Shown here: in pieces, positions 5,380-60,535 of the stretch | Position numbering within the stretch: position 1 is the first letter of the stretch | Layout: each line of letters opens with the position of its first letter | Virus record (IMG/VR): IMGVR_UViG_3300044647_001784 | Span: 1-64,000 of that record | Strand: one strand, 5' to 3' | DNA from: a virus | DNA length: 64,000 nucleotides | Made by a program: the position numbers and the translations under genes | Notes under the pieces: model-generated | Seen by the model: only the letters and a program-made list of their open reading frames with translations | Databases searched by the model: none | What the model was told of the DNA's origin: nothing

Positions 5380-5380
5380 T

Positions 5381-5569
5381 TTAACCAACCTTTACTTCGT
5401 TAAGGTGTCCATCTGGACACTCCCAAGCAAGCACCATAGACTCTGAATCCCAAAACGACTCTTCAGAATTTTTATCGCATTTGAAACATGGCTTAGAGCC
5501 AACTATTACCTCTAAATTATTTTTTTTAGGCTGCTCTGGCTTATTAAAAAATTCATTAAGATTTGGCAT
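5381..5569 (-). CDS. Small zinc-ribbon protein
   Basis: CFKC...WECPDGH; overlaps the recA stop. Confidence 0.65.
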   Translation of the reverse strand: MPNLNEFFNKPEQPKKNNLEVIVGSKPCFKCDKNSEESFWDSESMVLAWECPDGHLNEVKVG

Positions 5570-44770: not shown

Positions 44771-46573
44771 CTAGTCAAATTGCCTTATGAAATATGGTGT
44801 TCCATCCTGACCATGGACACTTTCAGATATAGTTACTCCTGGGTCAGTTATAACCTTTGAGTTATCTGAGCAATAAAGCCTGTAGTTAGTTATTGCTTCT
44901 GCGGATGTAAATGCTTTCTCGTAAAAAGCTATGTTGTTATATAGGTTTGAAGTTCCATATTCTGTATCTAATTGATTTTGATTAAACTTAATATTTAAGG
45001 CTGGCTGATTTAATACAATTATAATATGATGGGCAACATCATTTAGCAAAAATGTCGATACATTAGTCTCTGATGTCCTATTTATACCATTTACGTATAT
45101 GGCAGAAATTCCAGCTTTTGTTATTAATCCGTTAGCCGCCCATTTAATTGATGAGGATGCTGAAGAAAATAATACATTTTGTCCACCCCTTGGAGTAAAA
45201 AACATCTCTATTGTTCTTGGCTGAATAGAAAGATCTACAGAAAACCCATGGCCAGAATGCATTGACAGTCCGTTGTATTTATTTTGCATTCTTACTGGGT
45301 AATTGTATTGTCCTACTGCATAGTCGTATGCTGAGTATATTTTTGATCCAGAATTATCTGCATAAAAATCTTTATTTGAATACATATCAATTTCTAACTT
45401 ATCAAAATAAGGTAGGTCAAAGGATGAATCTTGTGTAGTCATTGTTACCCTTATATCTAGTATTGGGCTTCCTGAGTTCTGGTTTTTGTTGTAGTATGGC
45501 ATCGGAGAATTATTTTTGCAAACTACCCATGGCTGATTTGGGATTTGTATTTCAACCAAAATATTATCTACATCCTGCCCATAGCAAATTCTAGAAGAAA
45601 CAATATCTTCTGGATTTGATATATACAGTCTTTCTTGAAAAGAAAATGTTTTTGTTTCTACGGCATCTGTTTCTTCAAACTCAATTCTGTTATATTCTGA
45701 GTTATAATATGCATCTCCAGAAGCAAGTTCTTCTAGTGCTTTTATTCCAGGATACCTATATGAAATGTCTGGTCTTACTGATGCCGAGTTTAATGAAAAA
45801 AGAATTCCATTATTTGAATAAACAATTTGTGAGTACTTTGTCTCTTTGTATCCCGACAGATAATGATTTAATATTTTTGCTTCTTCTAGCTCATAGGCAT
45901 ATATTGCTGCTGAATCAACAATAAATTTTTTGCCTGAGTTGGCTGGTCCCAAGGATAGGTTTAAGCTTGAATTAGTAAATTTAAAGCTATCTACAACTGG
46001 ACTTTCAGAAACAATTTTTCCATCGACATAAAGTGAAATTGTATCTTTAGAAAACATACCTACAACATGCATAGCTTTATTTTTTGTAATCTTATGCCAA
46101 ACCATCTGTGTTGGACTACATTTAAAAATAATATTTTCATTTTTATAGAATAGACCAATTGAATTGGCAGCATCTCCTAGAATAATATATTCGGCATTGT
46201 CATCTTTGGCTGGACTAAACCATATTTCAAATGAGAATGGGCCATCTGGATTTCTATTCATACCAAGTCCTAGGGCTTTTAGGCTTATCTGTGCATTTTC
46301 ATTTATCTCTGTTCCTCTTACTCCCGCCCCAATAATAGGAAGAACTTCCATATCTGAGGTATTAATTGCATAGCCCTCCATTGAATTTCCAGTGTAATCA
46401 ATTATTGGTAGCCCGCTTACAGCAGCATATGATACGCCATTATCTTTTAAATCTTGATATGTTGAATATAGAGTTGTTAAATTGCTGTATACGCCAACTT
46501 CTCCAGAACGAACTTCATCTAGTAAAAAAAATGCAACTGGATTATCTTTTAAGACAGTATATTTATATGACAT
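44771..46573 (-). CDS. LamG/concanavalin-A-like virion protein
   Basis: VLKDNPVAFFLLDE, FSFEIWF, HVVG...LYVDG, and a second LamG-like repeat (HHIIIV). Confidence 0.75.
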   Translation of the reverse strand: MSYKYTVLKDNPVAFFLLDEVRSGEVGVYSNLTTLYSTYQDLKDNGVSYAAVSGLPIIDYTGNSMEGYAINTSDMEVLPIIGAGVRGTEINENAQISLKALGLGMNRNPDGPFSFEIWFSPAKDDNAEYIILGDAANSIGLFYKNENIIFKCSPTQMVWHKITKNKAMHVVGMFSKDTISLYVDGKIVSESPVVDSFKFTNSSLNLSLGPANSGKKFIVDSAAIYAYELEEAKILNHYLSGYKETKYSQIVYSNNGILFSLNSASVRPDISYRYPGIKALEELASGDAYYNSEYNRIEFEETDAVETKTFSFQERLYISNPEDIVSSRICYGQDVDNILVEIQIPNQPWVVCKNNSPMPYYNKNQNSGSPILDIRVTMTTQDSSFDLPYFDKLEIDMYSNKDFYADNSGSKIYSAYDYAVGQYNYPVRMQNKYNGLSMHSGHGFSVDLSIQPRTIEMFFTPRGGQNVLFSSASSSIKWAANGLITKAGISAIYVNGINRTSETNVSTFLLNDVAHHIIIVLNQPALNIKFNQNQLDTEYGTSNLYNNIAFYEKAFTSAEAITNYRLYCSDNSKVITDPGVTISESVHGQDGTPYFIRQFD

Positions 46574-46576
46574 GTC

Positions 46577-47689
46577 TTAAATCTCTTCTAGTGCTTTAAC
46601 TCTCGCTGTAAGCTCTTGTACTGCTTTAATTAATGGTGAAATAAATTGATCGTATCTTAATCCTTGCATAGAATCTTCTTCAGACATATCAATCTTTACC
46701 CAGCCAGCAAAGTCTTCTACTCCAGATTCATCTAAAGCTTCTTTTACTTGCTGAGCTATAAGTCCATAATGAGTTCTTGTTCCAGGAAGTGAAACTAAGT
46801 CTCCATCTACTAATTCTTTCCCGCCCTCAATAAATTTATATTTTACTGGATTTAAATTGTTTATAAAATCTAATCCTAAGTCGGAAGAAAAAATATCTGT
46901 CTTTAGTCTTTCATCAGAAGTATTTATTGTTCCAGTGTTAGAGTATATAGTTTTCCAAAATCTATTTGATGCTACACCAGCACCCGCATCTATTGGCTGT
47001 CCTATTGAGTACAAGTTATTTGCAAGTGGGTACCAGTTTGAGTTTACTCCATATCCAGACGTTGTTGGAATATTTAATGAAATAGTTGTAGGTACTGGAT
47101 CAATAGTTGCACTAGATCCAGGGATTCCTTGTGGGCCTTGTGCTCCAGTTAATCCAGTTGCGCCTCTAGGTATTGTAAAAGCAAATACAGCATTTGTAGC
47201 GGTTCCAGTATTTGTGACAGAAGCATTTGTTCCAGCTGCACCAGTTGTTGTTGTTCCAATTGCTAGTGTAGTTGGCCCTGGTATTCCTTGTGGTCCTGCT
47301 GGGCCAACAGGCCCTTGTGGTAAAACAAGATTTAAAGTTTGTGAGGGACTTGTGCCAGATATAGTTGCATCTGCATTTACACCAGACTCAACAGTTCCTA
47401 TTGAAAGAACATTAGATGGTCCTGGGCCTCCAATTATTCCATCTACACCTCTAGGTAATGTTAAGTTTAATATTGCTGCTTCTGGTGTTCCTACATTTAC
47501 TACTGACGCTGGAGTTGATGCGCTAACAGTTGTTACAGAGCCTATCGTTAAAGTCCCTGAAGGCCCTTGTGGGCCAGGATGAGCATCTAGATAAGCATCT
47601 ACATCAGCAGCAAGGTACCCTAGGTCTCTAGGGACGTCTGGCGTGTCTGTATACTGCGGGTACCTAAACCCTTTTCCTGTTGTGCTCAT
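46577..47689 (-). CDS. Collagen-like fibre protein with C-terminal S74-like chaperone
   Basis: Gly-X-Y runs (GPQGPSG; GPVGPAGPQGIPG; GATGLTGAQGPQGIPG); TSDERLKTDI, GLIAQQV, LIKAVQEL. Confidence 0.85.
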   Translation of the reverse strand: MSTTGKGFRYPQYTDTPDVPRDLGYLAADVDAYLDAHPGPQGPSGTLTIGSVTTVSASTPASVVNVGTPEAAILNLTLPRGVDGIIGGPGPSNVLSIGTVESGVNADATISGTSPSQTLNLVLPQGPVGPAGPQGIPGPTTLAIGTTTTGAAGTNASVTNTGTATNAVFAFTIPRGATGLTGAQGPQGIPGSSATIDPVPTTISLNIPTTSGYGVNSNWYPLANNLYSIGQPIDAGAGVASNRFWKTIYSNTGTINTSDERLKTDIFSSDLGLDFINNLNPVKYKFIEGGKELVDGDLVSLPGTRTHYGLIAQQVKEALDESGVEDFAGWVKIDMSEEDSMQGLRYDQFISPLIKAVQELTARVKALEEI

Positions 47690-47709: not shown

Positions 47710-48360
47710 TTACTTAATATATACATGTGCTGGGCTCATGTATCTTGTCCCAGAAGTGATTGGCATAACTTCATGTACATAAGGCTGCTGTGATGGGAAC
47801 ATAATTAGACTTCCAGCCTTTGGCTTAATTGTAATGTTTTGATTAGGAAAATGAATTTCTCCGCCTTCATAATCGTCATTTACATAGGCTACCAAAGAAA
47901 ATGCTAGAGTTGAATCTCCATCTTGCCCATCAAAATGTGGGCCCATGGACTGGCCCTGGTTCCACTTTTTAATTGGAACTTGGTTTAGCTCTAAATTATA
48001 TCTATTTTTATCCAGGTTATTTCCAGCTAAATATCTATCGGAACACATTTCAAATGCCATCAAAAAGCTATTTGCTATGTAAAGAGTTTTTTTATCAATT
48101 GCATCAGACCCAGTAGATTTTTTTAGATTAGATGAAAATATATTTTTTGTAGCCCCGTACACTATAGATTCATTATCGCTTGCTGTCCAGTTTTCCCACT
48201 TTGAAATTCTACTAAATGATGATGGCTCTAAATCTATCTCTTCTATAAAGTCCTTTAAGTACTCTGGAAAACTAAGTGCATTCTCCCAGTACCATATATT
48301 TTTTTCTACAATCTGCAAATTAAACATTGTAAATTGCTTGAATATTGGCTCGCCTTCCAT
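47710..48360 (-). CDS. 2OG-Fe(II) oxygenase, P4H-like
   Basis: MGPHFD, YVNDDYEGGEI, YVHEV, GTRYMS. Confidence 0.9.
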   Translation of the reverse strand: MEGEPIFKQFTMFNLQIVEKNIWYWENALSFPEYLKDFIEEIDLEPSSFSRISKWENWTASDNESIVYGATKNIFSSNLKKSTGSDAIDKKTLYIANSFLMAFEMCSDRYLAGNNLDKNRYNLELNQVPIKKWNQGQSMGPHFDGQDGDSTLAFSLVAYVNDDYEGGEIHFPNQNITIKPKAGSLIMFPSQQPYVHEVMPITSGTRYMSPAHVYIK

Positions 48361-48361
48361 A

Positions 48362-49114
48362 TTAGCCCTCTACTTCTGATGCTGGATAAACTTCTCCACG
48401 TGGAGTTATTCTTAAACCTTTATTTCTATAGTCTTCCCATTCAATGGCTTCATCTGCCTGCATTGCTCTAACTTTAGCAAGCTCTTCAGCCCAGGCATCT
48501 CTAACCTCTTGTGGGTAGTCACTCTCTTCTCTGTCATCCCAGAATGAGCCAAGTGTGTACCTGATTGATTTCTTAACTGTAGTAACTTCGTGCATATTGT
48601 GGAATCCTCCAGCAAAAGTGACTAAGGTTCCAGTTTTCGGAACAATTGTAAGCCCATGCTTAAAGTTTAAAACTCCATCTTCAAAGTCATCATTTAAATA
48701 AAGAAATGTTGCATATCTGCTTCTAGTAAATGCTCCTGAAACTCCATCATTAGATGTATTGTCAGAATGCATATTGGCAAAAGCTCCTGGGGCCCATCTT
48801 TGAGAATGCCAGCTAATTTGTGACATTTGTGCAGGATCTTTTCCAGCCATATCTGCTGTAACGTCAACTACTCTTTGTTTTAGAACTTGAAAAAAATCTC
48901 CTGGGAGCCCATTAGCAATTGTATCTGGATCATTTAGCTCTGGAGTTCCTGATGAGTATGACTCATAGAATGAAATTGGCATCCATCTTAATTGATCTTT
49001 TTCCATTTTAATTGCCAAAACTTTAATTATTGCTTGACATTCTTCTGGAGTAAGAAAGTTTTCATACTCAACTATATCCTCTTTATGTCTTTTAACAATC
49101 ATATTTCTTTCCAT
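48362..49114 (-). CDS. 2OG-Fe(II) oxygenase, P4H-like
   Basis: MHSDN, LYLNDDFEDG, MHEV, IRYTLGSFW. Confidence 0.9.
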   Translation of the reverse strand: MERNMIVKRHKEDIVEYENFLTPEECQAIIKVLAIKMEKDQLRWMPISFYESYSSGTPELNDPDTIANGLPGDFFQVLKQRVVDVTADMAGKDPAQMSQISWHSQRWAPGAFANMHSDNTSNDGVSGAFTRSRYATFLYLNDDFEDGVLNFKHGLTIVPKTGTLVTFAGGFHNMHEVTTVKKSIRYTLGSFWDDREESDYPQEVRDAWAEELAKVRAMQADEAIEWEDYRNKGLRITPRGEVYPASEVEG

Positions 49115-49932
49115 TAGTACATTTCTCCATCTTCTGTTGGATTGTAAACCTCATACGGAACCTGAACTCCATCTTTAAAATAAATCATATTTCTTTTGTT
49201 TTCGTAATTAGTTCTTTCCATTTCCATCTTAGCCCATCTAAATGCACCAAATTTTCTTTGGTTGGCAAGCCACTCCTCTGTTCCGTTATGAGGAACCATT
49301 ATAAAGTTTCTTACAAAAAACTTCTCATTGGTGTTAATTGTTTTAACGCCATGGTAGTATGGCTCAGTAGAAGGGAATACTAAAATATCTCCTGCAGCTG
49401 GCTTATGGTTTATAAACTTGCCGTCTACGTAAAATTCTATGTCTCCGCCGTCATAATCATCATTGATATACATAGTACATGTAAGGTAAAATTTGCTTCC
49501 AGGCATATCTTTTTCTGAAGTAATATGGTCTGTATGATACTGCATTGTCATCTTATTTGATAGAGTATCTATTTTAGCGTTATACTTTGAGTAAGAACAT
49601 CCACTAAAATGCCAGCCTTCTGGAAGATCAACACCATGTCTTTCTACATAGTCTAAAAGAACTTTATTATAAGCTGCCTCTACTTCTTCAACAAACTTTT
49701 TCTCTTTGATAAACATTTCGTCAGACAAAACTTCTGTAGAAACTTCTCGCATGTCTTTCTTTTGTGTGTATGTGCCAAAATGTGCCCAAGGATCCCACGT
49801 CTTCAAAAAGTACTTCCCATCTGATGTTTTTTCAGACTCATTCATTGTTTGATACAGTTCTTGTGGATTAGATAGAACGTTTCTGTAGACATCAATTTTA
49901 GGATGTAGCTCTATGTACTCTAAATTACTCAT
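49114..49932 (-). CDS. 2OG-Fe(II) oxygenase, P4H-like
   Basis: MQYHTD, YINDDYDGGDI, PSTEPYYHGVK. Likely start MSNLEY at 49932. Confidence 0.88.
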   Translation of the reverse strand: MSNLEYIELHPKIDVYRNVLSNPQELYQTMNESEKTSDGKYFLKTWDPWAHFGTYTQKKDMREVSTEVLSDEMFIKEKKFVEEVEAAYNKVLLDYVERHGVDLPEGWHFSGCSYSKYNAKIDTLSNKMTMQYHTDHITSEKDMPGSKFYLTCTMYINDDYDGGDIEFYVDGKFINHKPAAGDILVFPSTEPYYHGVKTINTNEKFFVRNFIMVPHNGTEEWLANQRKFGAFRWAKMEMERTNYENKRNMIYFKDGVQVPYEVYNPTEDGEMY

Positions 49933-50603
49933 GGCTGTTTTTCTCCTGTATGTTTTCTTATCGTCCAAAAAAATGGCGAAGTAAATCTATTTCCAGATTT
50001 TACTGGTCTTACCCCGTGAGTATAATTCATATCTCCTGGGAAAAAATATGCTGCTCCAGCAACAGGCTGGAACTCAATTCCATGTTGTGGGAAGTAAAGC
50101 TCTCCACCTTCATAATCATCGTTAAAGTAAAACAGTCCAGCTAAATCGTACCATGGGAAATTATTTGGTCTACCTTTTTCTGGGCCAGAGTGAAATTCTT
50201 TGTCTGCATGAGGCTCTTGTCTTGCACCTACTGGCCAGCGAACAATAGCTGGACCAGTTTCTTGTGCATCTACGCTAAAAAATTTATCTACTTCTATTTT
50301 TAATCTTGCTATCATGCTATAGATTAAATCTAATATTTCTGGATCAGAAGCCATAAGAGATGCATAGGTACAAACTCTATCTTCCCATACTGTGTGATCA
50401 TATAGCACAAGGCCGTCTGCATCTCTGCGTGTTTCAGTTATATCCCAAATTTTATTATTTTTTGCAAAGTCCATGAGTCTTTTTCTCTCATCTTCTGATA
50501 AGAAATTTCTTAGCTCTACAATGTTGTCTGAAGAGTTGCCAAAAAAACCAGAAGGTGTAATAGATTTAGGTGCATTGTTTTCCCAGTTATCTGCTAATTT
50601 CAT
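49929..50603 (-). CDS. 2OG-Fe(II) oxygenase, P4H-like
   Basis: PHADK, YFNDDYEGGEL, YTHGV, NRFTSPFFW. Likely start MKLADN at 50603 (GGAG RBS). Confidence 0.9.
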   Translation of the reverse strand: MKLADNWENNAPKSITPSGFFGNSSDNIVELRNFLSEDERKRLMDFAKNNKIWDITETRRDADGLVLYDHTVWEDRVCTYASLMASDPEILDLIYSMIARLKIEVDKFFSVDAQETGPAIVRWPVGARQEPHADKEFHSGPEKGRPNNFPWYDLAGLFYFNDDYEGGELYFPQHGIEFQPVAGAAYFFPGDMNYTHGVRPVKSGNRFTSPFFWTIRKHTGEKQP

Positions 50604-51333
50604 CTTTATCTCCATAATTAATTATATCATTGCTTACCTTAAGCCTTATTGATTTTACCTGGTGAGAGCCTATTTTTCTCTTTAAATGATCAACTGCATC
50701 CCTATAAAAATTTGACCAATCTCCAGAATTATTTAACCCTTTTATTGTTTCCCTGTATTCATTTGGGTCAAATACATCATTGTATGGATTTTGGGGAAAT
50801 TTTGAAATATCCTGAAAAACCATTTCAGAATTATTTAATGAGCTTAAATCTATTGGTAGTACTGCTACTACTGGGGTTCCTGCCTTAATGGTTATTACTT
50901 CATTTGGCTTTGTTATCATCCAGGCAATAGGGAGTGGGCCAGTAAAAAAAGAACTACTCATAATTGTAGTAAACGGAACTGCACCATCAATAAATAAATT
51001 TGGAACTGGCATTGAAAGCAAGCTTAAGTTTGTATCTGTTTTAAAAACTAATCCGCTATTAAAACTAATAGTTCCATTTGCTCTTCCAGAATATGCATAT
51101 TTTTGTCCAGACAATATTTTTACGTGATCTGGGCTGCTATCAGAAATTCCATCCCATATAAAAGATATGTCTTCTGGAAAAGATATTCCCCAGCCAAGCT
51201 GGTTACTTAAACTAACTGGAAAGCATTTGTATGCATGAGATTCAAATGTGTTGTCCATCCACTCTCTTTTTGCAGATAATGGCTCAAGTATACCAAGTCC
51301 TTCTTTAGTTATAAATACTTCTATTTTATCCAT
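50587..51333 (-). CDS. DUF6065-like protein
   Basis: KREWMD...HAYKCFPVSLSNQLGWGI...AGTPV...PI...FYRDAVD. Confidence 0.7.
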   Translation of the reverse strand: MDKIEVFITKEGLGILEPLSAKREWMDNTFESHAYKCFPVSLSNQLGWGISFPEDISFIWDGISDSSPDHVKILSGQKYAYSGRANGTISFNSGLVFKTDTNLSLLSMPVPNLFIDGAVPFTTIMSSSFFTGPLPIAWMITKPNEVITIKAGTPVVAVLPIDLSSLNNSEMVFQDISKFPQNPYNDVFDPNEYRETIKGLNNSGDWSNFYRDAVDHLKRKIGSHQVKSIRLKVSNDIINYGDKDEISR

Positions 51334-52030
51334 TTTGGTTTTTGCCAGTTGACAAATCTTCTTCTACCCATTTTGACCTCATTTGCATAAACTCTTGTCT
51401 ATGAGCATGGTCATTGTAATCTAACATGGTTACTATTGAAAATTTCATTCCAGATTCAACTGGCATGGCTCTATGTGAAAATAAATATGTAGATGGGAAT
51501 ATATATAGGTCTCCAGCTTTAGGCTTAATGTCTAAGTTTAATTTAGGAAAATATAGGTTCCCTCCCTCATAGTCATCGTTTACATAAGCTACAAGAGATA
51601 CTGTGGCGCTGTATGAAAACCCATGATCAGCATGCTCTTGAAAATGCTGTCCTTTGCCATATCTAATACAATTCATTACTTCCCAGTAATTCATTTTTAC
51701 GTTATACATATTACAATAATCTTCTACTGCTGGTAACTGATGCTGCTTTAAATCCTGCCATAAATCTGAAACCAATGATTGTGTTTTAGATTGTGGATTA
51801 GATATTTCTCCTACCTTAATATCTTCACAATCTCTGTAAGATGGTCTTTTTTCGCTATAACCAACAAATCCAAATGTCCATTCATATCTAGACTCTTTGT
51901 CTTCAATTGCAGACTGACCTATTACATTTAACCTATTTATTACGTCAATTTCTTTTTTAATTACATCTCTATACACCCAAACTCCTGGGAAAAGCTGTTC
52001 TTTAGAAGAAAAATTATATATGTTATTCAT
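51326..52030 (-). CDS. 2OG-Fe(II) oxygenase, P4H-like
   Basis: FQEHADH, YVNDDYEGGNL, FPSTYLFSHRA, KFSIV. Confidence 0.9.
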   Translation of the reverse strand: MNNIYNFSSKEQLFPGVWVYRDVIKKEIDVINRLNVIGQSAIEDKESRYEWTFGFVGYSEKRPSYRDCEDIKVGEISNPQSKTQSLVSDLWQDLKQHQLPAVEDYCNMYNVKMNYWEVMNCIRYGKGQHFQEHADHGFSYSATVSLVAYVNDDYEGGNLYFPKLNLDIKPKAGDLYIFPSTYLFSHRAMPVESGMKFSIVTMLDYNDHAHRQEFMQMRSKWVEEDLSTGKNQNG

Positions 52031-52037
52031 ACTATGA

Positions 52038-52067
52038 AGTATAGCATTTTTTAATTAGTAAAGTCAA
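52038..52067 (-). promoter_or_regulatory. Leaderless promoter of the oxygenase operon
   Basis: TTGACT-18nt-TATACT (extended TG), then 7 nt to the ATG at 52030. Confidence 0.75.
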
Positions 52068-52101
52068 TAAAGGACGGGAGATTTCTCTCCCGTCCTTTAT
52101 T
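52066..52101 (-). terminator. Rho-independent terminator after FFAPP-repeat gene 1
   Basis: AATAAAGGACGGGAGA-TTTC-TCTCCCGTCCTTTATT. Confidence 0.85.
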
Positions 52102-52112
52102 TGTGTTTTATA

Positions 52113-52946
52113 TTAAACTGCAAAGACTCCTGGTGCTCCGAATCCTGGCGGTGAGAAGAATCCTGGCGGTGCGAAGAATGCTGGCGGTGCGAAGAATCCT
52201 GGCGGTGCGAAGAATGCTGGCGGTGCGAAGAATCCTGGCGGTGCGAAGAATCCTGGCGGTGCGAAGAATCCTGGCGGTGCGAAGAAACTTGGCGGTGCGA
52301 AGAATGCTGGAGGGAAGAATGGTGGTGCAAAGAATGACGGTGCTAATGTCGTAACAGTATTTGTGTTATTTGATGCTGCTGATCTTCCATTAGCATTATC
52401 TGCATAAACATTGTAGTACTGAGATGTACTAGCTGTATCTGATATTGATATAGATAAGTTAGTTGTATTTCCAGTTGTTCCATCATTACCTTGAACAAAG
52501 TAGTTGGTTATTGGCTTTCCACCTGTTGCAGGTGCTCCCCAGCTAACCGTATTTGCATTAACTCCAGCAGTTGCAGATGCGCTTGTTGGTGCAGCTGGCT
52601 TTGTTGTTGCTGTTGCTGATGCTGAATTAGAATCTGCTGATGTTCCATAAAGGTCAACTGCTTTTACTGTATAAGAGTAAGAAGTTCCACCAACTAGTCC
52701 AGTATTAGAGAAGGTAGTAGTAGGAGCACTTACTGTTCCTACCTCTACTCCACTTCTAAATATTTTGTATTGAGTTGGTGCATTTCCTGTTGCTGGTGCT
52801 GTCCATGACAGATTAATCATTCCATCGTTAAAGTTTCGTTGGTTATTAACGCCGTTCAAATGATCTGCTGCGGTTAGCCCAGTTGGTGCATTTGGGCCAA
52901 TGAAGTTGTCTTGAGCTGATGCTCTTCTGCCTATATTTTTTGACAT
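52113..52946 (-). CDS. Two-FN3-domain protein with C-terminal (G/A/S)FFAPP repeats
   Basis: PNAPTGL...LSWTAP...YKIFR...YSYTVKAV; PAAP...VSWGAP...GRSAAS; about 11 FFxPP units. Confidence 0.85.
   Translation of the reverse strand: MSKNIGRRASAQDNFIGPNAPTGLTAADHLNGVNNQRNFNDGMINLSWTAPATGNAPTQYKIFRSGVEVGTVSAPTTTFSNTGLVGGTSYSYTVKAVDLYGTSADSNSASATATTKPAAPTSASATAGVNANTVSWGAPATGGKPITNYFVQGNDGTTGNTTNLSISISDTASTSQYYNVYADNANGRSAASNNTNTVTTLAPSFFAPPFFPPAFFAPPSFFAPPGFFAPPGFFAPPGFFAPPAFFAPPGFFAPPAFFAPPGFFSPPGFGAPGVFAV
52125..52340 (-). repeat. 18-bp coding tandem repeat (xFFAPP)n
   Basis: Plus-strand unit GAAGAATCCTGGCGGTGC and variants, about 10 copies. Confidence 0.95.
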
Positions 52947-52966: not shown

Positions 52967-55258
52967 TTATGCTTTCAAGTCTCCAGCAAGTAACCATGTA
53001 TCTGTTGCTACCTTGGTTATTGTTGCTGATGAATATAATGCTCTTAGCTTTAGTCCTGGAGTTCTCAATATTGTAACTCCAGATGCTTCTGCAAATACTG
53101 CGTCTGCTCCAGCTGACTGGTAGAAGCTTATTGAAGTTCCTATTGGATAAGCTGTAGTTGCATTTGTAGGAACTGTAATTGTGTGTGCTCCAGAAACTGG
53201 AATTAACTGATCTCTTAGCGCTAATCCACCTGTTGATAGATTGTATGCTCCAGCAATTGCTGTTCCAATTACAGTCCGTGAAGGAACGCCTTCCTTTGTC
53301 TGAGTTCCATCTGTAAACGCTACACCTGCTGCTGCAACCGTTACTGTTCCAGTAAATGTTGGTGAAGCAATTGGTGCTTTAGATGCAAGACTGGTAGTGA
53401 CTGTTGTTGCAAAGTTTGCATCGTCACCTAGTGCTGCAGCAAGCTCATCAAGGGTGTTAAGGGCTGCTGGGGCTGCTGCAATTACTGCATTTACCTGAGC
53501 TGTTGCATCTGCAATTGCTTCTGACTTAGCAGTTGCTATTGCTGAAGCCTGTGCTGTGGATACTGGCTTTGATGCATCTGATGTATTATCAACATTTGCA
53601 AGGCCTACTGAAGACTTTGTAAGTGCTGCTACTGCATTTGCAACCTTTGTGTCTGCTGCTAATCCTGCTGCTGTAATTGCATCTGCTTCTGCAGTGTCTG
53701 CATAAGACTTTGTTGCAAGAAGTGCTGTATCTGCAATTCCATGAACATCAGTTGTATCTGATGCGTGATTTGAAAGAGCTGTTGCAGCTGATCCAAACTG
53801 TGTTTGAATTGAAGATGTAACTCCATTTAGGTAAGTTATTTCTGTTGAATCAACATTACCTATGGTTGTTGACTCTGGCAAAACAACTAGACCTGCAAAT
53901 GTTGGTCCACTTAGTGGTGCTTTGGCATCTAGTGCGTCTCCTAGTCCAGCAATCTTGGACTGTGCAATTTCTGCACCGTCAACAATTTTTGCATTTGTAA
54001 TAGACTGAGCAGCAATCTTAGATTCTGTAACTGCATTGTTTGCAATTTTTGTTTCTGTTATGGCACCGTCTGCGATTTTACCATTAACTACTGCATTGTC
54101 TTGAATTTTTTCGCTAGTTACTGAATCAACAGCTAACTTTACATCAGTTACAGAGCCAGTTGCAATTTTGTCAGTTGAGATAGAACTATCTGCAACTTTA
54201 TCGTTTGTTACTGAGTTGGTTGCCAATTTTTGTTCTGTTACAGAGCTATTTGCAATTTTTTGTGTTACCACAGCGTTTGCTGCAAGCTTTTCTTCTGTTA
54301 CTCCTTGACTTTCAATTTTATCAGTTGTAACTGCACCGTTTGCAATTGAAGCAGATATAATTGATGAGACTGGAACATCAAGTGTTCCAGTAAATTCTGC
54401 GTTATTTATTGTTGCGCTAGATGTTGCTTCCAATCTTCCAAGGGCTAGTGTGTCTAAGGATCCTTGAGCAAAATTAACTACAGTGGTTGGAGTATCTGTA
54501 ACTCCTTTGAAAAGCTTCCACTTGTCTGCTGATGCATCACGAACTAGTCCAGTGTGGTTTGCTACTCCAGTGTTATGGTTAGCAACAAATCCTAAGTCTA
54601 AAATGTTTGTTGTATTGTCTTTTCCAATTGATAGAAGTGCATCTTCAAAAGCAACATTTTGGGTATCAATAGTTGTGGTTGTTCCGCTTACAATTAAGCT
54701 ACCATTAATAACTACGTTTTGAGCTGTTAGATCTCCCTCTGTTGAAATATGTGTTGTTAGGCCTGTTAGTTTTAGTTGAGCTTCTGGAACTTTAACGTTT
54801 CCATCAAGTGAAGCAACTCCGTTTGCTATGCCTCTGTCACCTGTCTCTAGGTATCCTGACAATGAGCTATTTACTCCATTTACAGCAGCATCTGTGTAAC
54901 CTTCTGCTGCTGAAATAGCTGCTTCTCTAGCTGCTGATGCTTCTGATGTTGCAAACGCTTTTGTAGAAATAACATTTGTATCTACAGTTATTGTTATTGT
55001 GTTTGATCCATCATTATAGGTCTTTGTAAGACCTGCTCCCATTGAAAGAGCCTGATCTATAGCATCTTGTGAAATTTCACCAATTGCTGCTGTGTCGGCT
55101 GCTGCATATGAAAGAGCGGTCCATGTAGATGAACCATTACCGAATTTAAATTTATTAGTGTTTGTTTCAACACCCATTTCACCTGCAGCTAATACTGGAT
55201 TTGCTGCGGTCCATTCTGAAGATAAACCTCTACGTACTTGAATTCTTACTGTTGACAT
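52967..55258 (-). CDS. Fibre-like protein with Mtd-N/hyaluronidase-type N-terminus and 10-aa repeats
   Basis: IQVRRG...EWTAANPVLAAGEMGVETNTNKFKFGNG; IAxxAVTxxK repeats; C-terminal DTWLLAGDL. Confidence 0.75.
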   Translation of the reverse strand: MSTVRIQVRRGLSSEWTAANPVLAAGEMGVETNTNKFKFGNGSSTWTALSYAAADTAAIGEISQDAIDQALSMGAGLTKTYNDGSNTITITVDTNVISTKAFATSEASAAREAAISAAEGYTDAAVNGVNSSLSGYLETGDRGIANGVASLDGNVKVPEAQLKLTGLTTHISTEGDLTAQNVVINGSLIVSGTTTTIDTQNVAFEDALLSIGKDNTTNILDLGFVANHNTGVANHTGLVRDASADKWKLFKGVTDTPTTVVNFAQGSLDTLALGRLEATSSATINNAEFTGTLDVPVSSIISASIANGAVTTDKIESQGVTEEKLAANAVVTQKIANSSVTEQKLATNSVTNDKVADSSISTDKIATGSVTDVKLAVDSVTSEKIQDNAVVNGKIADGAITETKIANNAVTESKIAAQSITNAKIVDGAEIAQSKIAGLGDALDAKAPLSGPTFAGLVVLPESTTIGNVDSTEITYLNGVTSSIQTQFGSAATALSNHASDTTDVHGIADTALLATKSYADTAEADAITAAGLAADTKVANAVAALTKSSVGLANVDNTSDASKPVSTAQASAIATAKSEAIADATAQVNAVIAAAPAALNTLDELAAALGDDANFATTVTTSLASKAPIASPTFTGTVTVAAAGVAFTDGTQTKEGVPSRTVIGTAIAGAYNLSTGGLALRDQLIPVSGAHTITVPTNATTAYPIGTSISFYQSAGADAVFAEASGVTILRTPGLKLRALYSSATITKVATDTWLLAGDLKA
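53950..54345 (-). repeat. 10-residue protein repeat (I/L)AxxSVTxxK, about 13 copies
   Basis: IANGAVTTDK IESQGVTEEK LAANAVVTQK IANSSVTEQK ... Confidence 0.85.
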
Positions 55259-58135: not shown

Positions 58136-60535
58136 TTATACAGCAAATACTCCTGGTGCTCCGAATGCTGGCGGTGCGAAGAACTCTGGTGGCGCAAAGA
58201 CTGGGTCTGGGTCTGGTTCTGGGAATGCTGGTGGTGTAAAGACTGGTTCTGGATCTGGATCTGGAAATGCTGGTGGTGAAAAGAATCCTGGTGGCGCAAA
58301 GAATGATGGTGGTGCAAATACAGCTGGTGCACATCCTGCTTGGGCTGCGGCTGCTAAAGCGGCAGAAGATGTTGATCGGTATCTCAATACTTCTCGTGCA
58401 CTACTTGGACCTGAAATTACATCTGTTGGAATTGATGAAGCAGTATAAGGACCACTAACAGATGGACTTGAGCCATAATTTCCAGAGTTATTGTTACACA
58501 AAGAATATCCTATATAATAAGTTACTGTTACTGGTGGTGTACATTCCTGAGTTTGTGTTTCAGTATATGCAGTGCATGATCCAGCATGATAGTTTGTTCT
58601 TGTTTTAGTTTGTGTTCCTTCAGAAGAACATGTGCTCCATGCGCTCCATGCACTTGGTGTTGGACATGAAATAAAATCACCGCAGCATTGCTGTCCAACG
58701 CTTATTGCATAAGTTGTAGAGTTACCAAGTAACTGTCTTCCAAGCTCAGCACAGGTATATGCTGCTGCATTTGTTATAGTTCCTGGACATGCTGGTTTTT
58801 CTTGTGGTGGTGGGAAATCTGGGGATGCTTGATACGTAAACTTATTTACTGTAATTGTAGGTATTGGAGATGAATTTACAATAGTTCCAGCAGCGGGGGA
58901 TTGTGAAGAAACTAGTCCTTCTTTTGTATAATCAGTGGTGCCAACTGCTGTTCCTGCTGCAATGTTGTAACTTGATGTGCTAGAAGGATTATATGTTCCA
59001 ACTAGGTTTGGGATTGTATATGTTGTGGGTACGCAAACTGGGGTTCTAGATACTCCTCCAGCAACCTGATTATTTATTCCTGGCTCATCAGCGTTGCAAG
59101 CTGCATTTAATCCTGTAAGAGCTGCGCTGCTATTTGCATAAGTTCCAGTTACTCCAGCCCCATTGCCGCAACAGGCCCAATATTGAACTGGTGAAGTAGG
59201 CTCTTCTGCTTCTTTTGTTGTAGATGCAACTGAGTTACTGCTATATGTTTTTGAGGTAGTATTTAAATCGGTAGTCAATACATAAACAGAAGATGTTATT
59301 GACTTGTTGTCATATTGAGTTGTGTCGCCTAGGCTTAATGTACTTCCAATTCCAAATGGTATGTTGACCCCATCCGCATACCATTCATGAATATAAGAAT
59401 AAATTGAAGAAGAATTACTCCATGTTCCATTTGTTGATGTAAATGATCTTCCAGTTCCAGAAACTGTTGGTGCAACTTGATTTACTGGTAAAGGAACTGA
59501 TGGATATACTATAGGTAATCCTGGGAAAGAAGACCATGATGTTTCAGTAAATCTTGGAGCGGTTCCAGTTACAGTAATTGTGTATGATCCATATGTTGTT
59601 CCGCCAACCCCTATTCTTTCAATCCAATATGAGGTTTGAGAAGGACCTCCAGAAAAATATGAACTAGACTCCATATTACCGTTGTTATATACAATCCATT
59701 CTGTTGGCTGTATTAAATTTAAAGACCAAGACAGGGTTCCTCCATTTGAGCTTGAAGACATAGTCGTTGTAACTCCAGGCTTATTTGGCTTTACATCAGA
59801 AACTGATGCATTAGCACCAATACCTTGAACTGTAGTTCCGCTAATATTAGATGTATTTAGTGGTCTTACTAATAACAAAAGTCCGCCGCTTCCATTTCCA
59901 GTATCTATCTCATATGTATTTACATCTCCAGTAAGCTGTATTTCTCCAGAAGCGGCACCTGAATATTGTATATAAAAATCATTTGCTCCAATTGGCTTTG
60001 TCCAATCTACTTTTATTACTCCATTTGATACTACAGATGCAGATACAACAGAAAGTTTTTGTGGACCTATTAATGGGCTCGGTAAAGTATAGACATCTGG
60101 ATCATTATCTCCAGCAGCATTTGTAGCTGTTACCTTACACCTTACAACATACCCAACATACTTTAAAGTTCTAGTAGAATTCCATTCGTCTTCATCTAAT
60201 TGAAGTGTATTTGATGTCTTGCCTGTAATGTTTGACCAATTATATGAAGACCCAGTCCATGCTGCTTTTTGCCATTGATATTTAAATGAAGTTGGAGAAT
60301 TTTCCCAGACACCGTTTGAAACAGAAACAGTTTCTTGTGCTGCATACCAGAAAGCTCCTCCTTGCAATGAAAGTATAGGAAGCTCTGTGTTTTTTGGTTT
60401 TAAGTCAAGTAGGGATTTCCATTCAGAACCATCCCATATATATGCCGCTTTAGATTCATTCCATGTGCTTCCATCATGAATCTGTACTTTTTTTAAAGGA
60501 TTCCAACTGGAACCGTCAAAAATATTTAGCGGCAT
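58136..60535 (-). CDS. Multidomain surface protein (Ig/FN3-like, PASTA-like, TSP1-like) with C-terminal FAPP repeats
   Basis: GVWENSPTSFKYQWQ and PVNQVAPTVSG...NGTW Ig-like units; IPNLVG...GLVSSQSPAAG; WSAWSTCS; ends FGAPGVFAV. Confidence 0.8.
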   Translation of the reverse strand: MPLNIFDGSSWNPLKKVQIHDGSTWNESKAAYIWDGSEWKSLLDLKPKNTELPILSLQGGAFWYAAQETVSVSNGVWENSPTSFKYQWQKAAWTGSSYNWSNITGKTSNTLQLDEDEWNSTRTLKYVGYVVRCKVTATNAAGDNDPDVYTLPSPLIGPQKLSVVSASVVSNGVIKVDWTKPIGANDFYIQYSGAASGEIQLTGDVNTYEIDTGNGSGGLLLLVRPLNTSNISGTTVQGIGANASVSDVKPNKPGVTTTMSSSSNGGTLSWSLNLIQPTEWIVYNNGNMESSSYFSGGPSQTSYWIERIGVGGTTYGSYTITVTGTAPRFTETSWSSFPGLPIVYPSVPLPVNQVAPTVSGTGRSFTSTNGTWSNSSSIYSYIHEWYADGVNIPFGIGSTLSLGDTTQYDNKSITSSVYVLTTDLNTTSKTYSSNSVASTTKEAEEPTSPVQYWACCGNGAGVTGTYANSSAALTGLNAACNADEPGINNQVAGGVSRTPVCVPTTYTIPNLVGTYNPSSTSSYNIAAGTAVGTTDYTKEGLVSSQSPAAGTIVNSSPIPTITVNKFTYQASPDFPPPQEKPACPGTITNAAAYTCAELGRQLLGNSTTYAISVGQQCCGDFISCPTPSAWSAWSTCSSEGTQTKTRTNYHAGSCTAYTETQTQECTPPVTVTYYIGYSLCNNNSGNYGSSPSVSGPYTASSIPTDVISGPSSAREVLRYRSTSSAALAAAAQAGCAPAVFAPPSFFAPPGFFSPPAFPDPDPEPVFTPPAFPEPDPDPVFAPPEFFAPPAFGAPGVFAV

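What the first reader, a model, noticed from the sequence alone, without database searches (positions are those of the whole stretch)
47710..52946. Candidate phage post-translational modification system: FFAPP-repeat protein followed by five P4H-like oxygenases and a DUF6065-like gene
Seen: a 277-aa protein of two FN3 domains ends in about 11 (G/A/S)FF(A/S)PP units. It is followed directly by a six-gene, tightly packed operon with its own promoter: five divergent 2OG-Fe(II) oxygenases, all with intact HxD...H triads and the YxNDDY(E/D)GG motif, plus a DUF6065-like gene. A collagen-like gene lies on the other side. Established: this oxygenase class includes peptidyl-prolyl hydroxylases that act on polyproline-II, collagen and extensin-like repeats. 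Inference: the repeat is a dedicated substrate that several enzymes modify at different positions (Pro-1, Pro-2, Phe ring or beta-carbon), possibly before glycosylation or cross-linking. This would give an extensin- or RiPP-like decorated tail on the virion. I know of no characterised phage system of this kind.
Basis: partly seen in the sequence, partly recalled or inferred. Interest (0 to 1): 0.9.

Follow-up and report, generated by a model that had tools for sequence, protein, structure and literature searches.

The report
Phage Phe-Pro stalk proteins beside hydroxylases
An uncultured lake phage ends two fibre-region proteins in a greasy Phe-Phe-x-Pro-Pro repeat and places five proline-hydroxylase-like enzymes plus a helper protein right next to one of them, which makes the repeat a testable, but unproven, target for a class of phage enzymes whose job has been unknown for twenty years.

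Summary
52113-52946(-) encodes an FN3 protein ending in 11 FF(x)PP units. After a strong hairpin come five PF13640 oxygenases with intact HxD...H, and one DUF6065 gene. This operon runs straight into a collagen-like fibre gene.

New here:
- A second protein (58136-60535) carries the same repeat and the same 9-residue end.
- In relatives the repeat is capped by interchangeable modules: short tag, Hint/BIL domain, Peptidase_S74 chaperone or Cys-rich knot. It therefore looks like a fibre stalk, not a loose tail.
- Repeat and oxygenase cluster occur together in every related IMG/VR locus with enough flank, but that is one inherited gene order.
- The oxyE model matches only protein prolyl hydroxylases.
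- DUF6065 has a dUTPase fold and is fused to this oxygenase type in bacteria.

Against a dedicated substrate: the genome holds four more such oxygenases, including a DUF6065 pair beside RecA. Bacteria and cyanophage Syn9 have the enzyme/partner module without any Phe-Pro repeat.

Tandem phage dioxygenase arrays with a dUTPase-fold cysteine protein were described in 2010 (PMC2938197).

Verdict: plausible virion-protein hydroxylation system, substrate unproven. This scan has already reported the same system on other genomes.

The parts
52113..52946 (-). FN3-FN3 protein ending in 11 FF(x)PP units and the end GFGAPGVFAV (the 'small stalk protein')
   Evidence: ORF and translation. Pfam fn3. Unit count. 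All 80 of 80 orthologues keep at least 8 units.
52140..52310 (-). 18-bp tandem DNA repeat that encodes the hexapeptide units
   Evidence: TRF: period 18, 9.5 copies, 93% matches, score 300.
52066..52101 (.). GC-rich hairpin (terminator-like) between the repeat gene and the first oxygenase
   Evidence: -27.2 kcal/mol. A hairpin of -19 kcal/mol or stronger, with different sequences, stands at this place in 22 of 50 distinct intergenic regions of relatives.
52038..52067 (-). sigma-70-like promoter candidate (TTGACT-18-TATACT, with TG)
   Evidence: The number of such sites in the region is not above the shuffled expectation, so this is a candidate only.
51326..52030 (-). oxyE, a P4H-type 2OG/Fe(II) oxygenase
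   Evidence: PF13640 53 bits. H133, D135, H186 and K196 are invariant in 19 orthologues. Model pLDDT 87.9. Foldseek hits are PHD2, PBCV-1 vCPH, CrP4H and BaP4H.
50587..51333 (-). DUF6065: dUTPase-fold protein with an invariant Cys37, likely partner of an oxygenase
   Evidence: PF19541 E 5.4e-28. Model pLDDT 87.5. dUTPase fold by Foldseek E 1.6e-4 and VIA Z 10.9. Fused to PF13640 in 5 of 10 long homologues.
49929..50615 (-). oxyD, a P4H-type oxygenase; closest of the window's paralogues to the oxygenase domain of 2 of 5 DUF6065 fusion proteins
   Evidence: PF13640 32.9 bits. H136, D138, H200 and R210 conserved. for the fusion comparison.
49114..49968 (-). oxyC, a P4H-type oxygenase
   Evidence: PF13640 35.2 bits. 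H145, D147, H206 and K216 conserved.
48362..49114 (-). oxyB, a P4H-type oxygenase
   Evidence: PF13640 32.8 bits. H116, D118, H175 and R185 conserved.
47710..48360 (-). oxyA, a P4H-type oxygenase
   Evidence: PF13640 48.9 bits. HFD at 142, about 90% conserved in a group that includes paralogues.
46577..47689 (-). Collagen-like fibre with a C-terminal Peptidase_S74 self-cleaving chaperone; starts 20 nt after oxyA and appears to belong to the same operon
   Evidence: Present in 38 of 71 relatives whose cluster could be read through.
44771..46573 (-). Laminin_G_3 (concanavalin-like) protein, 3 nt after the collagen-like gene
58136..60535 (-). Large (799 aa) fibre-region protein that ends in the same kind of FFxPP repeat and the identical end FGAPGVFAV
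   Evidence: Translation. Within-genome matching of the two tails in relatives.
52967..55258 (-). Fibre protein with an Mtd_N domain; the gene just upstream of the small stalk protein (20-nt gap)
   Evidence: Conserved position in relatives.
3554..4243 (-). Second DUF6065 copy, in the replication/recombination module
   Evidence: PF19541 E 9e-18.
4543..5388 (-). Sixth PF13640 oxygenase (oxyF), between the second DUF6065 and RecA (5556-6560)
   Evidence: PF13640 43.3 bits. RecA.

Best explanation
This is a conserved module of a large clade of uncultured lake siphophages. The portal is about 55% identical to that of Streptomyces phages of the Stanwilliamsviridae.

Shown:
- Two fibre-region proteins end in a charge-free (small-Phe-Phe-small-Pro-Pro)n tract. 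In different relatives the tract is capped by a short tag, a self-cleaving-type Hint/BIL domain, a Peptidase_S74 self-cleaving chaperone or a Cys-rich knot. That is the build of a fibre stalk with an assembly or tip module.
- Directly after the smaller protein, behind a hairpin, an operon encodes five divergent prolyl-4-hydroxylase-type 2OG/Fe(II) oxygenases with intact active sites, plus a dUTPase-fold DUF6065 protein. In this window the operon continues into a collagen-like fibre gene.

Inferred:
- The oxygenases hydroxylate the phage's own fibre proteins late in infection.
- The Pro-Pro(-Gly/Ser/Ala) sites of the Phe-Pro stalks are the leading candidate substrate. The collagen-like fibre is the second candidate.
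- Hydroxylation would stiffen or stabilise a polyproline-II or collagen-like stalk, or make it adhesive.
- DUF6065 is fused in bacteria to this oxygenase type, and once to a sulfotransferase. It probably acts as a substrate-presenting or regulatory subunit rather than as a nucleotide hydrolase.
For: - P4H identity. All five exceed the PF13640 cut-off. The oxyE profile hits B. anthracis P4H at E 1.6e-8, LH3, and PBCV-1 P4H at E 0.037. All of the roughly 45 Foldseek hits listed for the oxyE model are protein prolyl hydroxylases, E 7.6e-10 and weaker, TM 0.5-0.65. A basic residue stands 10 positions after the distal His in all five. This is the collagen-P4H spacing as I recall it.
- Each paralogue is a separately conserved orthologue group. 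This argues for five distinct, selected specificities.
- Position. The operon is packed between fibre genes, and the collagen-like fibre and LamG genes follow with gaps of 20 and 3 nt.
- Co-occurrence in the first locus set. All 80 of 80 orthologues keep 8 or more units. Of 76 loci with at least 1.5 kb downstream, 75 have an oxygenase next; the exception, L018, holds frameshifted fragments. All 71 loci that could be read through have 5-9 oxygenases.
- Co-occurrence in the second locus set. Among 78 further loci found by the repeat's DNA pattern, 68 hold oxygenases. The only 2 with neither oxygenase nor clade marker are fragments of 2.3 and 1.5 kb.
- A sub-lineage has a 122-150 aa repeat protein without FN3 that still abuts the oxygenases. 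The element kept next to the enzymes is therefore the repeat, not the FN3 part.
- The collagen-like fibre is present in only 38 of 71 loci. The repeat tracks the enzymes better.
- Stalk reading. The cap is Peptidase_S74 in L175 (39.6 bits against a cut-off of 22). It is Hint/BIL in many loci (profile against 2lwy E 2.1e-7; 16 of 28 score Intein_splicing below the cut-off). Spacing between units is 6 in 1009 of 1216 unit pairs, and every third residue is G/A/S at 90% or more in 46 of 109 tracts.
- DUF6065 as partner. 5 of 10 long homologues are DUF6065-PF13640 fusions, and one is a sulfotransferase fusion. 13 of 80 bacterial loci are fused or adjacent.
- Weak. Contigs of two freshwater RNA libraries from one study, at least 99% identical to the window, cover the fibre genes and pieces of all six cluster genes. 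DNA carry-over is not excluded.
Against:
- The co-occurrence is one conserved gene order in one clade. The cultured outgroup lacks both parts. The data therefore fit a single joint gain and give no independent replicates.
- The genome has 9 PF13640 matches. One DUF6065/oxygenase pair sits beside RecA and nucleases, and two matches lie outside the window.
- The best cyanophage homologues also sit between UvsX and the helicase.
- DUF6065 with or without an oxygenase occurs in at least 599 bacterial stretches. None of the 80 loci examined has 3 or more FFxPP units.
- Three cyanomyoviruses with such oxygenases, plus Syn9, have no FFxPPxFF. The proteins around the Syn9 array are not Pro-rich.
- The number of oxygenases does not follow the number of repeat units: rho 0.16, p 0.28, 48 loci.
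- A hairpin separates the repeat gene from the enzymes.
- FFPP units break the three-residue period, and Gly is not kept, so a true collagen helix is unlikely.
- The chlorovirus P4H works on peptides in vitro, yet hydroxyproline was not found in its virions (passage in PMC7019647).
Confidence: 0.4

Rival explanations
1. The oxygenase/DUF6065 operon acts on something other than virion proteins. Candidates are host or phage non-structural proteins (for example translation factors, as bacterial P4Hs do), or small molecules or peptide metabolites, as proposed for cyanophage dioxygenase arrays. Its place beside the Phe-Pro stalk gene would then be inherited gene order only. The repeat would be an unmodified stalk or anchor cassette.
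For: - Four further PF13640 matches are scattered over the genome.
- A DUF6065/oxygenase pair lies in the RecA/nuclease/polymerase module, and homologues lie beside UvsX in P-SSM4 and S-RIM2.
- DUF6065/oxygenase fusions occur in Proteobacteria with 0 of 80 loci holding the repeat.
- Syn9 carries a tandem array plus a probable DUF6065-like gp43 (hhalign E 7e-4, 167 columns, probability only 26%). It has no Phe-Pro repeat and no Pro-rich neighbours.
- PMC2938197 (passages read) proposes secondary-metabolite synthesis for that array. PMC3037559 (passages read) proposes 2OG/N-stress or DNA-repair roles.
- Solved bacterial P4Hs among the fold hits act on EF-Tu, going by the titles of 4iw3 and 5v7y.
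- A hairpin stands between the repeat gene and the operon.
Against: - The operon is embedded in, and apparently co-transcribed with, fibre genes.
- No halogenase, NRPS or transporter was seen in the cluster.
- Five separately conserved paralogues are held at one fixed place next to the repeat gene in all relatives. This includes the lineage where the repeat protein has a different N-terminal part.
Confidence: 0.33
2. The collagen-like Peptidase_S74 fibre (46577-47689), not the Phe-Pro repeat, is the substrate. This would be a classical collagen/P4H pair within one operon.
For: - It starts 20 nt after oxyA.
- It has Gly-X-Y stretches with Pro.
- The nearest solved relative by sequence is the collagen-type P4H of B. 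anthracis.
Against: - The gene is absent from 33 of 71 relatives that keep 5-9 oxygenases.
- It has only a few short collagenous stretches, which would hardly need five enzymes.
Confidence: 0.1
3. The cluster modifies nucleotides or DNA. The dUTPase-fold DUF6065 would bind a (deoxy)nucleotide and the oxygenases would oxidise bases.
For: - DUF6065 has a dUTPase fold.
- A second pair sits in the replication module.
- PHROGs label the same domain 'DNA endonuclease'. This probably follows old cyanophage annotations such as those seen.
Against: - The oxygenases match the P4H families by sequence and fold, not AlkB or Tet/JBP.
- DUF6065 is 8-15% identical to dUTPases. I did not map the dUTPase motifs.
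- DUF6065 is also fused to a sulfotransferase.
- The main cluster lies among fibre genes.
Confidence: 0.07

Closest known systems
Chlorovirus PBCV-1 prolyl 4-hydroxylase (vCPH/A085R, PDB 5c5t)
   Same: It is a virus-encoded, small, P4H-type 2OG oxygenase. It is a fold hit of oxyE (rank 4, E 1.4e-9) and a profile hit at E 0.037. [quoted passage not shown] As I recall, the viral genome also encodes Pro-rich repeats.
   Different: PBCV-1 is a eukaryotic giant virus with a single enzyme, no DUF6065 partner and no Phe-Pro repeat. Its natural substrate is still unknown, and hydroxyproline was not detected in its virions (same passages).
Tandem dioxygenase array of cyanophage Syn9 (gp41-gp54), Iyer, Abhiman, de Souza and Aravind 2010 (PMC2938197; passages read)
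   Same: [quoted passage not shown] That wording fits DUF6065, which has an invariant Cys37 and a dUTPase fold. The array lies directly after tail-fibre genes. Syn9 gp43 aligns weakly with the DUF6065 profile (E 7e-4, probability 26%).
   Different: The Syn9 array includes tryptophan halogenases and a JmjC enzyme. Its authors proposed secondary-metabolite synthesis. The PF19541 model does not score in Syn9. Syn9 has no Phe-Pro repeat and no Pro-rich neighbour.
Bacillus anthracis prolyl 4-hydroxylase (PDB 3itq, 5hv0)
   Same: It is the best sequence-profile match of oxyE, E 1.6e-8 over the catalytic core, and a fold hit. As I recall, it is a bacterial enzyme that accepts collagen-like Gly-Pro-Pro peptides.
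   Different: It is a cellular enzyme, single copy, with no DUF6065. The title of 5v7y says it modifies EF-Tu, so even here the natural substrate is debated.
Self-cleaving C-terminal modules of fibres: Peptidase_S74 intramolecular chaperone, and bacterial intein-like (BIL) domain (PDB 2lwy)
   Same: In relatives the repeat is followed by Peptidase_S74 (L175) or by a Hint/BIL-type domain. The latter starts with Cys or Ser and, in some relatives, ends in His-Asn plus 1-5 residues. Both families are known for autoproteolysis. As I recall, S74 domains assist trimer assembly of fibres.
   Different: The window's own two proteins have neither module. They end in a 9-residue tag. I found no paper on a Hint domain at the extreme C-terminus of a phage fibre-region protein (search; the phage hits read concern terminase and reductase inteins).
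Multi-copy 2OG-Fe(II) oxygenases of marine cyanomyoviruses (Sullivan et al. 2010, PMC3037559; passages read)
   Same: They are the nearest homologues in cultured phages: 407 records, 27-31% identity for the listed hits. There are several copies per genome and their function is unknown. One copy lies beside the RecA-like gene, as in this window.
   Different: They belong to myoviruses of cyanobacteria. The copies are scattered or lie in variable regions. No Phe-Pro repeat was found in the four genomes tested.

Membership tests
Prolyl-4-hydroxylase-type 2OG/Fe(II) oxygenases (Pfam PF13640) | Match to the family model above the curated score | tested here: met
   All 5 of 5 cluster ORFs score 32.8-53.0 bits against a cut-off of 27.
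Prolyl-4-hydroxylase-type 2OG/Fe(II) oxygenases (Pfam PF13640) | HxD...H iron triad, and a basic residue for the 2OG carboxylate | tested here: met
   HxD is present in all five and 100% conserved in four groups, about 90% in oxyA. Distal His and K/R at +10: oxyE H186/K196, oxyD H200/R210, oxyC H206/K216, oxyB H175/R185, oxyA read from the sequence. The role of the +10 residue is recalled knowledge.
Prolyl-4-hydroxylase-type 2OG/Fe(II) oxygenases (Pfam PF13640) | P4H-like double-stranded beta-helix fold | tested here: met
   Tested for oxyE only. Model pLDDT 87.9. The listed Foldseek hits are all protein prolyl hydroxylases. The other four were not folded.
Prolyl-4-hydroxylase-type 2OG/Fe(II) oxygenases (Pfam PF13640) | Hydroxylation of peptidyl proline | not testable with these tools
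   This needs enzyme assays or mass spectrometry.
Collagen-like triple helix (for the Phe-Pro tract) | Gly at every third residue over the whole tract | tested here: not met
   Every third residue is G, A or S rather than Gly. 46 of 109 tracts reach 90% or more G/A/S in one phase, with a median of 0.83. FFPP units shift the phase.
Hint / bacterial intein-like domain (cap of the repeat) | Profile match to solved Hint/BIL domains; N-terminal Cys/Ser; C-terminal His-Asn | tested here: met
   Met for relatives only. The profile of 28 caps against 2lwy gives E 2.1e-7, plus several inteins. Cys or Ser stands at the start, and HN plus 1-5 residues at the end in a subset. Single-sequence Pfam scores stay below the cut-offs.
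Hint / bacterial intein-like domain (cap of the repeat) | Presence in the window's own proteins | tested here: not met
   Both window proteins stop 9-10 residues after the repeat.
DUF6065 (Pfam PF19541) | Match above the curated score | tested here: met
   98.5 bits against a cut-off of 26.6 for 50587-51333, and 65.1 bits for 3554-4243.
dUTPase superfamily (for DUF6065) | dUTPase beta-barrel fold | tested here: met
   Foldseek E 1.6e-4, target TM 0.70. VIA Z 10.9, with all 14 hits at Z 8 or more being dUTPases or dUTPase-like viral proteins.
dUTPase superfamily (for DUF6065) | The five catalytic dUTPase motifs | not tested
   Identity is 8-15%. I did not map the motifs, so I do not file DUF6065 as a dUTPase.
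Extensin-type hydroxyproline glycoprotein system | Glycosyltransferase encoded with the hydroxylases | tested here: inconclusive
   PF00535 has no match in the 86-kb record, which is about 80% complete. Other glycosyltransferase families were not searched.

The most novel reading that the evidence does not exclude
The phage makes a previously unknown kind of fibre stalk. It is a charge-free (small-Phe-Phe-small-Pro-Pro)n polyproline-type rod. The rod is folded with the help of interchangeable self-cleaving caps (Hint or S74). It is then matured by a dedicated battery of five position-specific hydroxylases. A dUTPase-fold DUF6065 subunit recruits these enzymes to their substrate. If so, this would reveal what the orphan 2OG oxygenases of aquatic phages do.
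Probability: 0.2. Interest if true: 0.85.

Novelty: new variant of a known kind. Interest (0 to 1): 0.62.

Why it matters
P4H-type 2OG oxygenases are among the commonest 'auxiliary' genes of aquatic phages. In the papers whose passages I read (2010) their roles are only guessed at: 2OG balance, DNA repair or metabolite synthesis.

This clade appears in lake metagenomes and, at 99% identity or more, in freshwater RNA libraries. It offers a concrete, cheap test. Express a 277-aa protein, or a repeat peptide, with six small genes and look for +16 Da.

- A positive result would give phages a virion-protein hydroxylation system, assign a function to DUF6065, and define a new fibrous repeat.
- A negative result would turn attention to host targets.

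The Hint- and S74-capped variants also suggest a new use of self-cleaving domains in fibre assembly.

Tried and rejected
- Cultured relatives. Megablast of the region, tblastn of DUF6065 and tblastn of the large stalk protein against 50,697 phage records found nothing. The small protein hit only FN3 parts of Listeria phages. BLAST's low-complexity filter may hide repeat matches.
- Context of distant DUF6065 homologues. P0048 gave two short viral contigs with the gene at the contig end, and neither oxygenase nor repeat downstream. P0057 gave none. Neighbours of bacterial DUF6065 genes in L131 and L090 were uninformative: a tRNA_edit domain, LysE, an ADH-type dehydrogenase.
- ORFs that relatives insert into the cluster (u179, u191) match nothing. 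u237 is a weak DUF6065-like match (hhalign 36%, E 3.7e-4).
- Host. No WhiB domain in the record.
- Dosage idea. Unit number against oxygenase number shows no correlation.
- Collagen reading of the repeat: rejected as strict collagen.
- RNA libraries. No contig bridges the hairpin at 52031-52112. Depth in X16 and X17 is higher over the fibre genes than over the oxygenases. Contig depth cannot rank genes, both runs are from one study and DNA carry-over is possible, so I draw no conclusion about termination or expression level. Runs X19 and X20 hold mostly 90-99% relatives.
- All 15 DNA runs that hold the stretch are flagged as possible sources. They are not independent support for habitat.
- Literature. 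No paper holds 'DUF6065'. 'FFAPP', 'GFFAPP' and 'FFAPPGFF' gave only unrelated strings. 'prolyl 4-hydroxylase' + 'bacteriophage' + '2OG-Fe' gave 2 papers, seen as a listing only. The listing was not read further. Supplementary files of papers are closed, and Figure 4 and the supplementary data of PMC2938197 could bear on which Syn9 gene is the dUTPase-fold protein.

Full report
WHAT IS THERE

The window is part of an 86,296-bp IMG/VR virus record, linear and about 80% complete. Almost all genes are on the minus strand.

Portal, protease, capsid-like protein and a 3,692-aa ORF mark a siphovirus-type structural module. The portal is 54-58% identical to portals of Streptomyces phages of the Stanwilliamsviridae. 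The stretch itself has no nucleotide match among 50,697 cultured phage records.

The finding's coordinates are correct. In transcription order the region reads:
- fibre-like genes: 55752-57158, 55320-55682, and 52967-55258 with an Mtd_N domain;
- the FN3 protein, 52113-52946;
- a hairpin;
- oxyE, 51326-52030;
- DUF6065, 50587-51333;
- oxyD, 49929-50615;
- oxyC, 49114-49968;
- oxyB, 48362-49114;
- oxyA, 47710-48360;
- a collagen-like Peptidase_S74 fibre, 46577-47689;
- a Laminin_G_3 protein, 44771-46573;
- a small ORF, then the portal.

From oxyE to the Laminin_G_3 gene, neighbouring genes overlap or lie 1-20 nt apart.

THE REPEAT

The FN3 protein ends in 11 units, 10 FFxPP and one FFPP, and then GFGAPGVFAV. 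In DNA this is an 18-bp tandem array: 9.5 copies, 93% matches.

Following a lead from an earlier first-stage note, I found a second carrier. The 799-aa protein at 58136-60535 ends in the same type of repeat and the identical last nine residues.

Across 109 distinct tracts from related phages:
- composition is 32% Pro, 31.5% Phe, 10% Ala, 10% Gly and 8% Ser;
- charged residues make up 1.3%;
- the spacing of units is 6 in 1009 of 1216 unit pairs;
- the positions before FF and between FF and PP are mostly G/S/A.

The tract is thus a (small-Phe-Phe)(small-Pro-Pro) hexad. Every third residue is small, as in collagen, but it is not consistently Gly, and FFPP units shift the phase. I therefore do not call it collagen.

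RELATIVES

A scan of IMG/VR with the FN3 protein found 230 relatives, and 80 loci were kept, at 43-89% identity. Findings across these loci:
- All 80 orthologues keep 8 or more units.
- 76 loci have at least 1.5 kb downstream. 75 of them carry an oxygenase next. The exception, L018, has frameshifted fragments of the same genes.
- 71 loci could be read through to the next structural gene. The number of oxygenases is 5 (41 loci), 6 (24), 7 (2), 8 (2) or 9 (2).
- Among those 71, DUF6065 is present once in 67 loci, twice in 2, and was not detected in 2.
- The collagen-like fibre is present in only 38 of the 71.

A second scan used the repeat's degenerate DNA pattern. I analysed 78 new loci from it:
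- 76 have an ORF with 3 or more units.
- 68 hold oxygenases.
- The only two with neither oxygenase nor a clade marker are fragments of 2.3 and 1.5 kb.

I therefore saw the repeat nowhere outside this phage clade. Within the clade, repeat and enzymes always go together.

This is one conserved gene order, not a set of independent events. The cultured outgroup has neither part:
- no Streptomyces phage appears among the 407 records matched by oxyE;
- BillNye has no FFxPPxFF;
- BillNye has no oxygenase annotated upstream of its portal.

The data fit one joint gain.

THE REPEAT IS A STALK WITH INTERCHANGEABLE CAPS

In many relatives the tract is followed by a 156-190-aa domain. This domain:
- begins with Cys or Ser;
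- has a Thr-x-x-His/Gln block;
- ends, in a subset, in His-Asn plus 1-5 residues.

A profile of 28 such domains matches a solved bacterial intein-like domain (2lwy, E 2.1e-7) and several inteins. 16 of 28 score Pfam Intein_splicing and 11 of 28 score Hint_2, all below the curated cut-offs.

Other caps occur as well:
- In L175 the cap is a Peptidase_S74 chaperone domain, 39.6 bits against a cut-off of 22.
- In others it is a Cys-rich knot or a short tag.

Within a genome the small and the large protein usually carry the same cap type. Examples are the window, L004-L010, L025, L026, L040, L058, L060, L078 and L080. Exceptions are L001, L002, L012, L014, L035, L043 and L077.

One sub-lineage, including a 162-kb contig, has a 122-150-aa repeat protein without FN3. 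It still sits between the Mtd_N fibre gene and the oxygenases.

A repeat tract with a variable, often self-cleaving, C-terminal module is how phage fibres are built. The window's own collagen-like gene shows the same plan with S74. I therefore read the tract as a stalk, not a free tail.

I found no paper on such a repeat, nor on a C-terminal Hint cap on a phage fibre-region protein.

THE ENZYMES

- All five exceed the PF13640 cut-off.
- HxD, the distal His and a K/R ten residues later are present in all five.
- Each paralogue forms its own orthologue group with many private conserved residues. Four groups have 28-53 positions conserved at 95% or more (oxyD and oxyE 28 each, oxyC 49, oxyB 53). 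The oxyA group, which includes paralogues, has only 5.
- The paralogues are only 23-50% identical to each other, over aligned stretches of 50-242 residues that mostly cover the core.
- An oxyE profile finds B. anthracis P4H (E 1.6e-8), PiuC-type hydroxylases, lysyl hydroxylase LH3 and the chlorovirus P4H.
- The oxyE model (pLDDT 87.9) matches only protein prolyl hydroxylases in the listed Foldseek hits: PHD2, PBCV-1 vCPH, Chlamydomonas P4H with its (Ser-Pro)5 peptide, B. anthracis P4H and Pseudomonas PPHD with EF-Tu.

'P4H-like' is therefore sound. The substrate cannot be read from this.

DUF6065

- The model (pLDDT 87.5) has a dUTPase-type barrel over residues 1-170 by two methods. Foldseek gives E 1.6e-4. 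VIA-align gives Z 10.9, with 14 hits at Z 8 or more, all dUTPases or dUTPase-like viral proteins.
- Identity to dUTPases is 8-15%. I did not map the dUTPase motifs.
- A profile search of 1.84 billion representatives found 1,385 relatives.
- Of ten long relatives, five are DUF6065-PF13640 fusions whose oxygenase half has the same LNDD(F/Y)EGG motif. One is a fusion to an Stf0 sulfotransferase.
- The fused oxygenase halves resemble oxyD (2 of 5) or oxyA (3 of 5) most. oxyD is the gene just after DUF6065.
- In bacterial genomes at least 599 stretches encode the family, mostly in Proteobacteria. Of the best 80 loci, 10 are fused to such an oxygenase, 3 are adjacent to one, and 67 have none within 8 kb by my phage-derived HMM. 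None has 3 or more Phe-Pro units.
- The window holds a second DUF6065 (3554-4243) next to a sixth oxygenase (4543-5388). This pair lies among RecA, nuclease and polymerase genes.

DUF6065 and this oxygenase type therefore work together as a general pair, independent of the repeat.

PRIOR ART

An earlier report of this scan pointed me to Iyer et al. 2010 (PMC2938197). I read its passages on phages. [quoted passage not shown] The authors proposed metabolite synthesis for this array. For some bacterial operons they proposed hydroxylation and sulfation of co-encoded collagen-like or tail-collar proteins.

My checks on Syn9:
- The array follows the tail-fibre genes.
- gp43 aligns weakly with the DUF6065 profile: E 7e-4, 167 columns, probability 26%. 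gp46 and gp61 do not.
- The Pfam model itself does not score.
- Syn9 has no FFxPPxFF, and none of 15 proteins in and around the array is Pro-rich.

Three more cyanomyoviruses with such oxygenases also lack the repeat. The pattern finds 9 sites in the window's own genome, which serves as the positive control. In P-SSM4 and S-RIM2 the best oxyE homologue lies between UvsX and the helicase. This mirrors the window's RecA-adjacent oxygenase.

Sullivan et al. 2010 (PMC3037559, passages) report several such genes in 14 of 16 cyanomyoviruses, with only guessed roles.

The chlorovirus P4H hydroxylates Pro peptides and is virion-associated. Hydroxyproline was nevertheless not found in its virions (PMC7019647, passages).

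TRANSCRIPTION AND HABITAT

- A hairpin of -27 kcal/mol follows the repeat gene. Hairpins of -19 kcal/mol or stronger, with different sequences, stand there in 22 of 50 distinct intergenic regions of relatives.
- This fits a strong structural transcript followed by a weaker enzyme operon, but it also decouples the two.
- The promoter-like site is not above chance.
- Contigs from two freshwater RNA libraries of one study, at least 99% identical to the window, cover the fibre genes and pieces of every cluster gene. This is weak evidence of expression in nature.

WEIGHING

For virion-protein hydroxylation:
- enzyme type;
- five separately conserved specificities;
- a fixed place within fibre genes;
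- apparent co-transcription with a collagen-like fibre;
- perfect co-occurrence with the repeat, which persists where the rest of the repeat protein differs.

Against a dedicated link:
- the co-occurrence has no independent replicates;
- further oxygenases, and a DUF6065 pair, lie in the replication module;
- the enzyme/partner module occurs without the repeat in bacteria and probably in Syn9;
- the number of units does not follow the number of enzymes: rho 0.16, p 0.28, 48 loci;
- no chemistry has been done.

My estimates:
- About 0.4 that the cluster hydroxylates the phage's own fibre proteins, with the Phe-Pro stalks as lead substrate.
- About 0.33 that it acts elsewhere and the adjacency is historical.
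- About 0.1 that the collagen-like fibre alone is the target.
- About 0.07 that nucleotides or DNA are the target.

NOVELTY

Viral P4Hs and phage tandem dioxygenase arrays with a dUTPase-fold partner are already in print. New are the Phe-Pro stalk cassette on two proteins, its Hint and S74 caps, and its fixed pairing with the array. These turn an old open question into a simple experiment.

This scan has already reported the same system on other genomes, with the same 'partly supported' verdict. I set my scores from my own tests.

Noticed in passing
window 4543-5388 and 5556-6560; L277 3962-4528; L278 3884-4453: A P4H-type 2OG oxygenase lies directly beside the RecA/UvsX gene in this siphophage and in the unrelated cyanomyoviruses P-SSM4 and S-RIM2. 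This recurring pairing hints at a replication- or recombination-linked role for that copy.
   Followed up: partly
protein P0104 (representative library): It is a fusion of an Stf0-type sulfotransferase with DUF6065. Together with the oxygenase fusions, this suggests that DUF6065 serves several tailoring enzymes.
   Followed up: no
L187 9367-10476: An AurF-like di-iron oxygenase (PF11583, 29.7 bits against a cut-off of 29.6) stands in the extended oxygenase cluster of the sub-lineage whose repeat proteins are short and lack FN3.
   Followed up: no
L015 13860-14573 and homologues in 37 loci: A 237-aa ORF just after DUF6065, absent from the window, aligns weakly with DUF6065 (hhalign 36%, E 3.7e-4). 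It may be a second, divergent partner protein.
   Followed up: partly
window 56120-56357 and 56582-56780: Two 57-bp tandem arrays (4.2 and 3.5 copies) lie inside the 468-aa fibre-like gene. They encode Ala-rich 19-residue repeats.
   Followed up: no
L001 1640-4150, L189 1069-1380, L235 1688-2548, L074 2243-3145: In some relatives the Phe-Pro tract ends in a Cys-rich segment of 20-50 residues instead of a tag or Hint domain. This may be a disulfide or metal knot at the fibre tip.
   Followed up: no
window 24337-35415: A single ORF of 3,692 aa (TTG start) lies in the tail module, presumably the tape measure. It was not examined.
   Followed up: no
G000 68941-69150 and 69745-69900 (+ strand, outside the window): Two further PF13640 matches lie on the opposite strand in the part of the genome beyond the window.
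   Followed up: no
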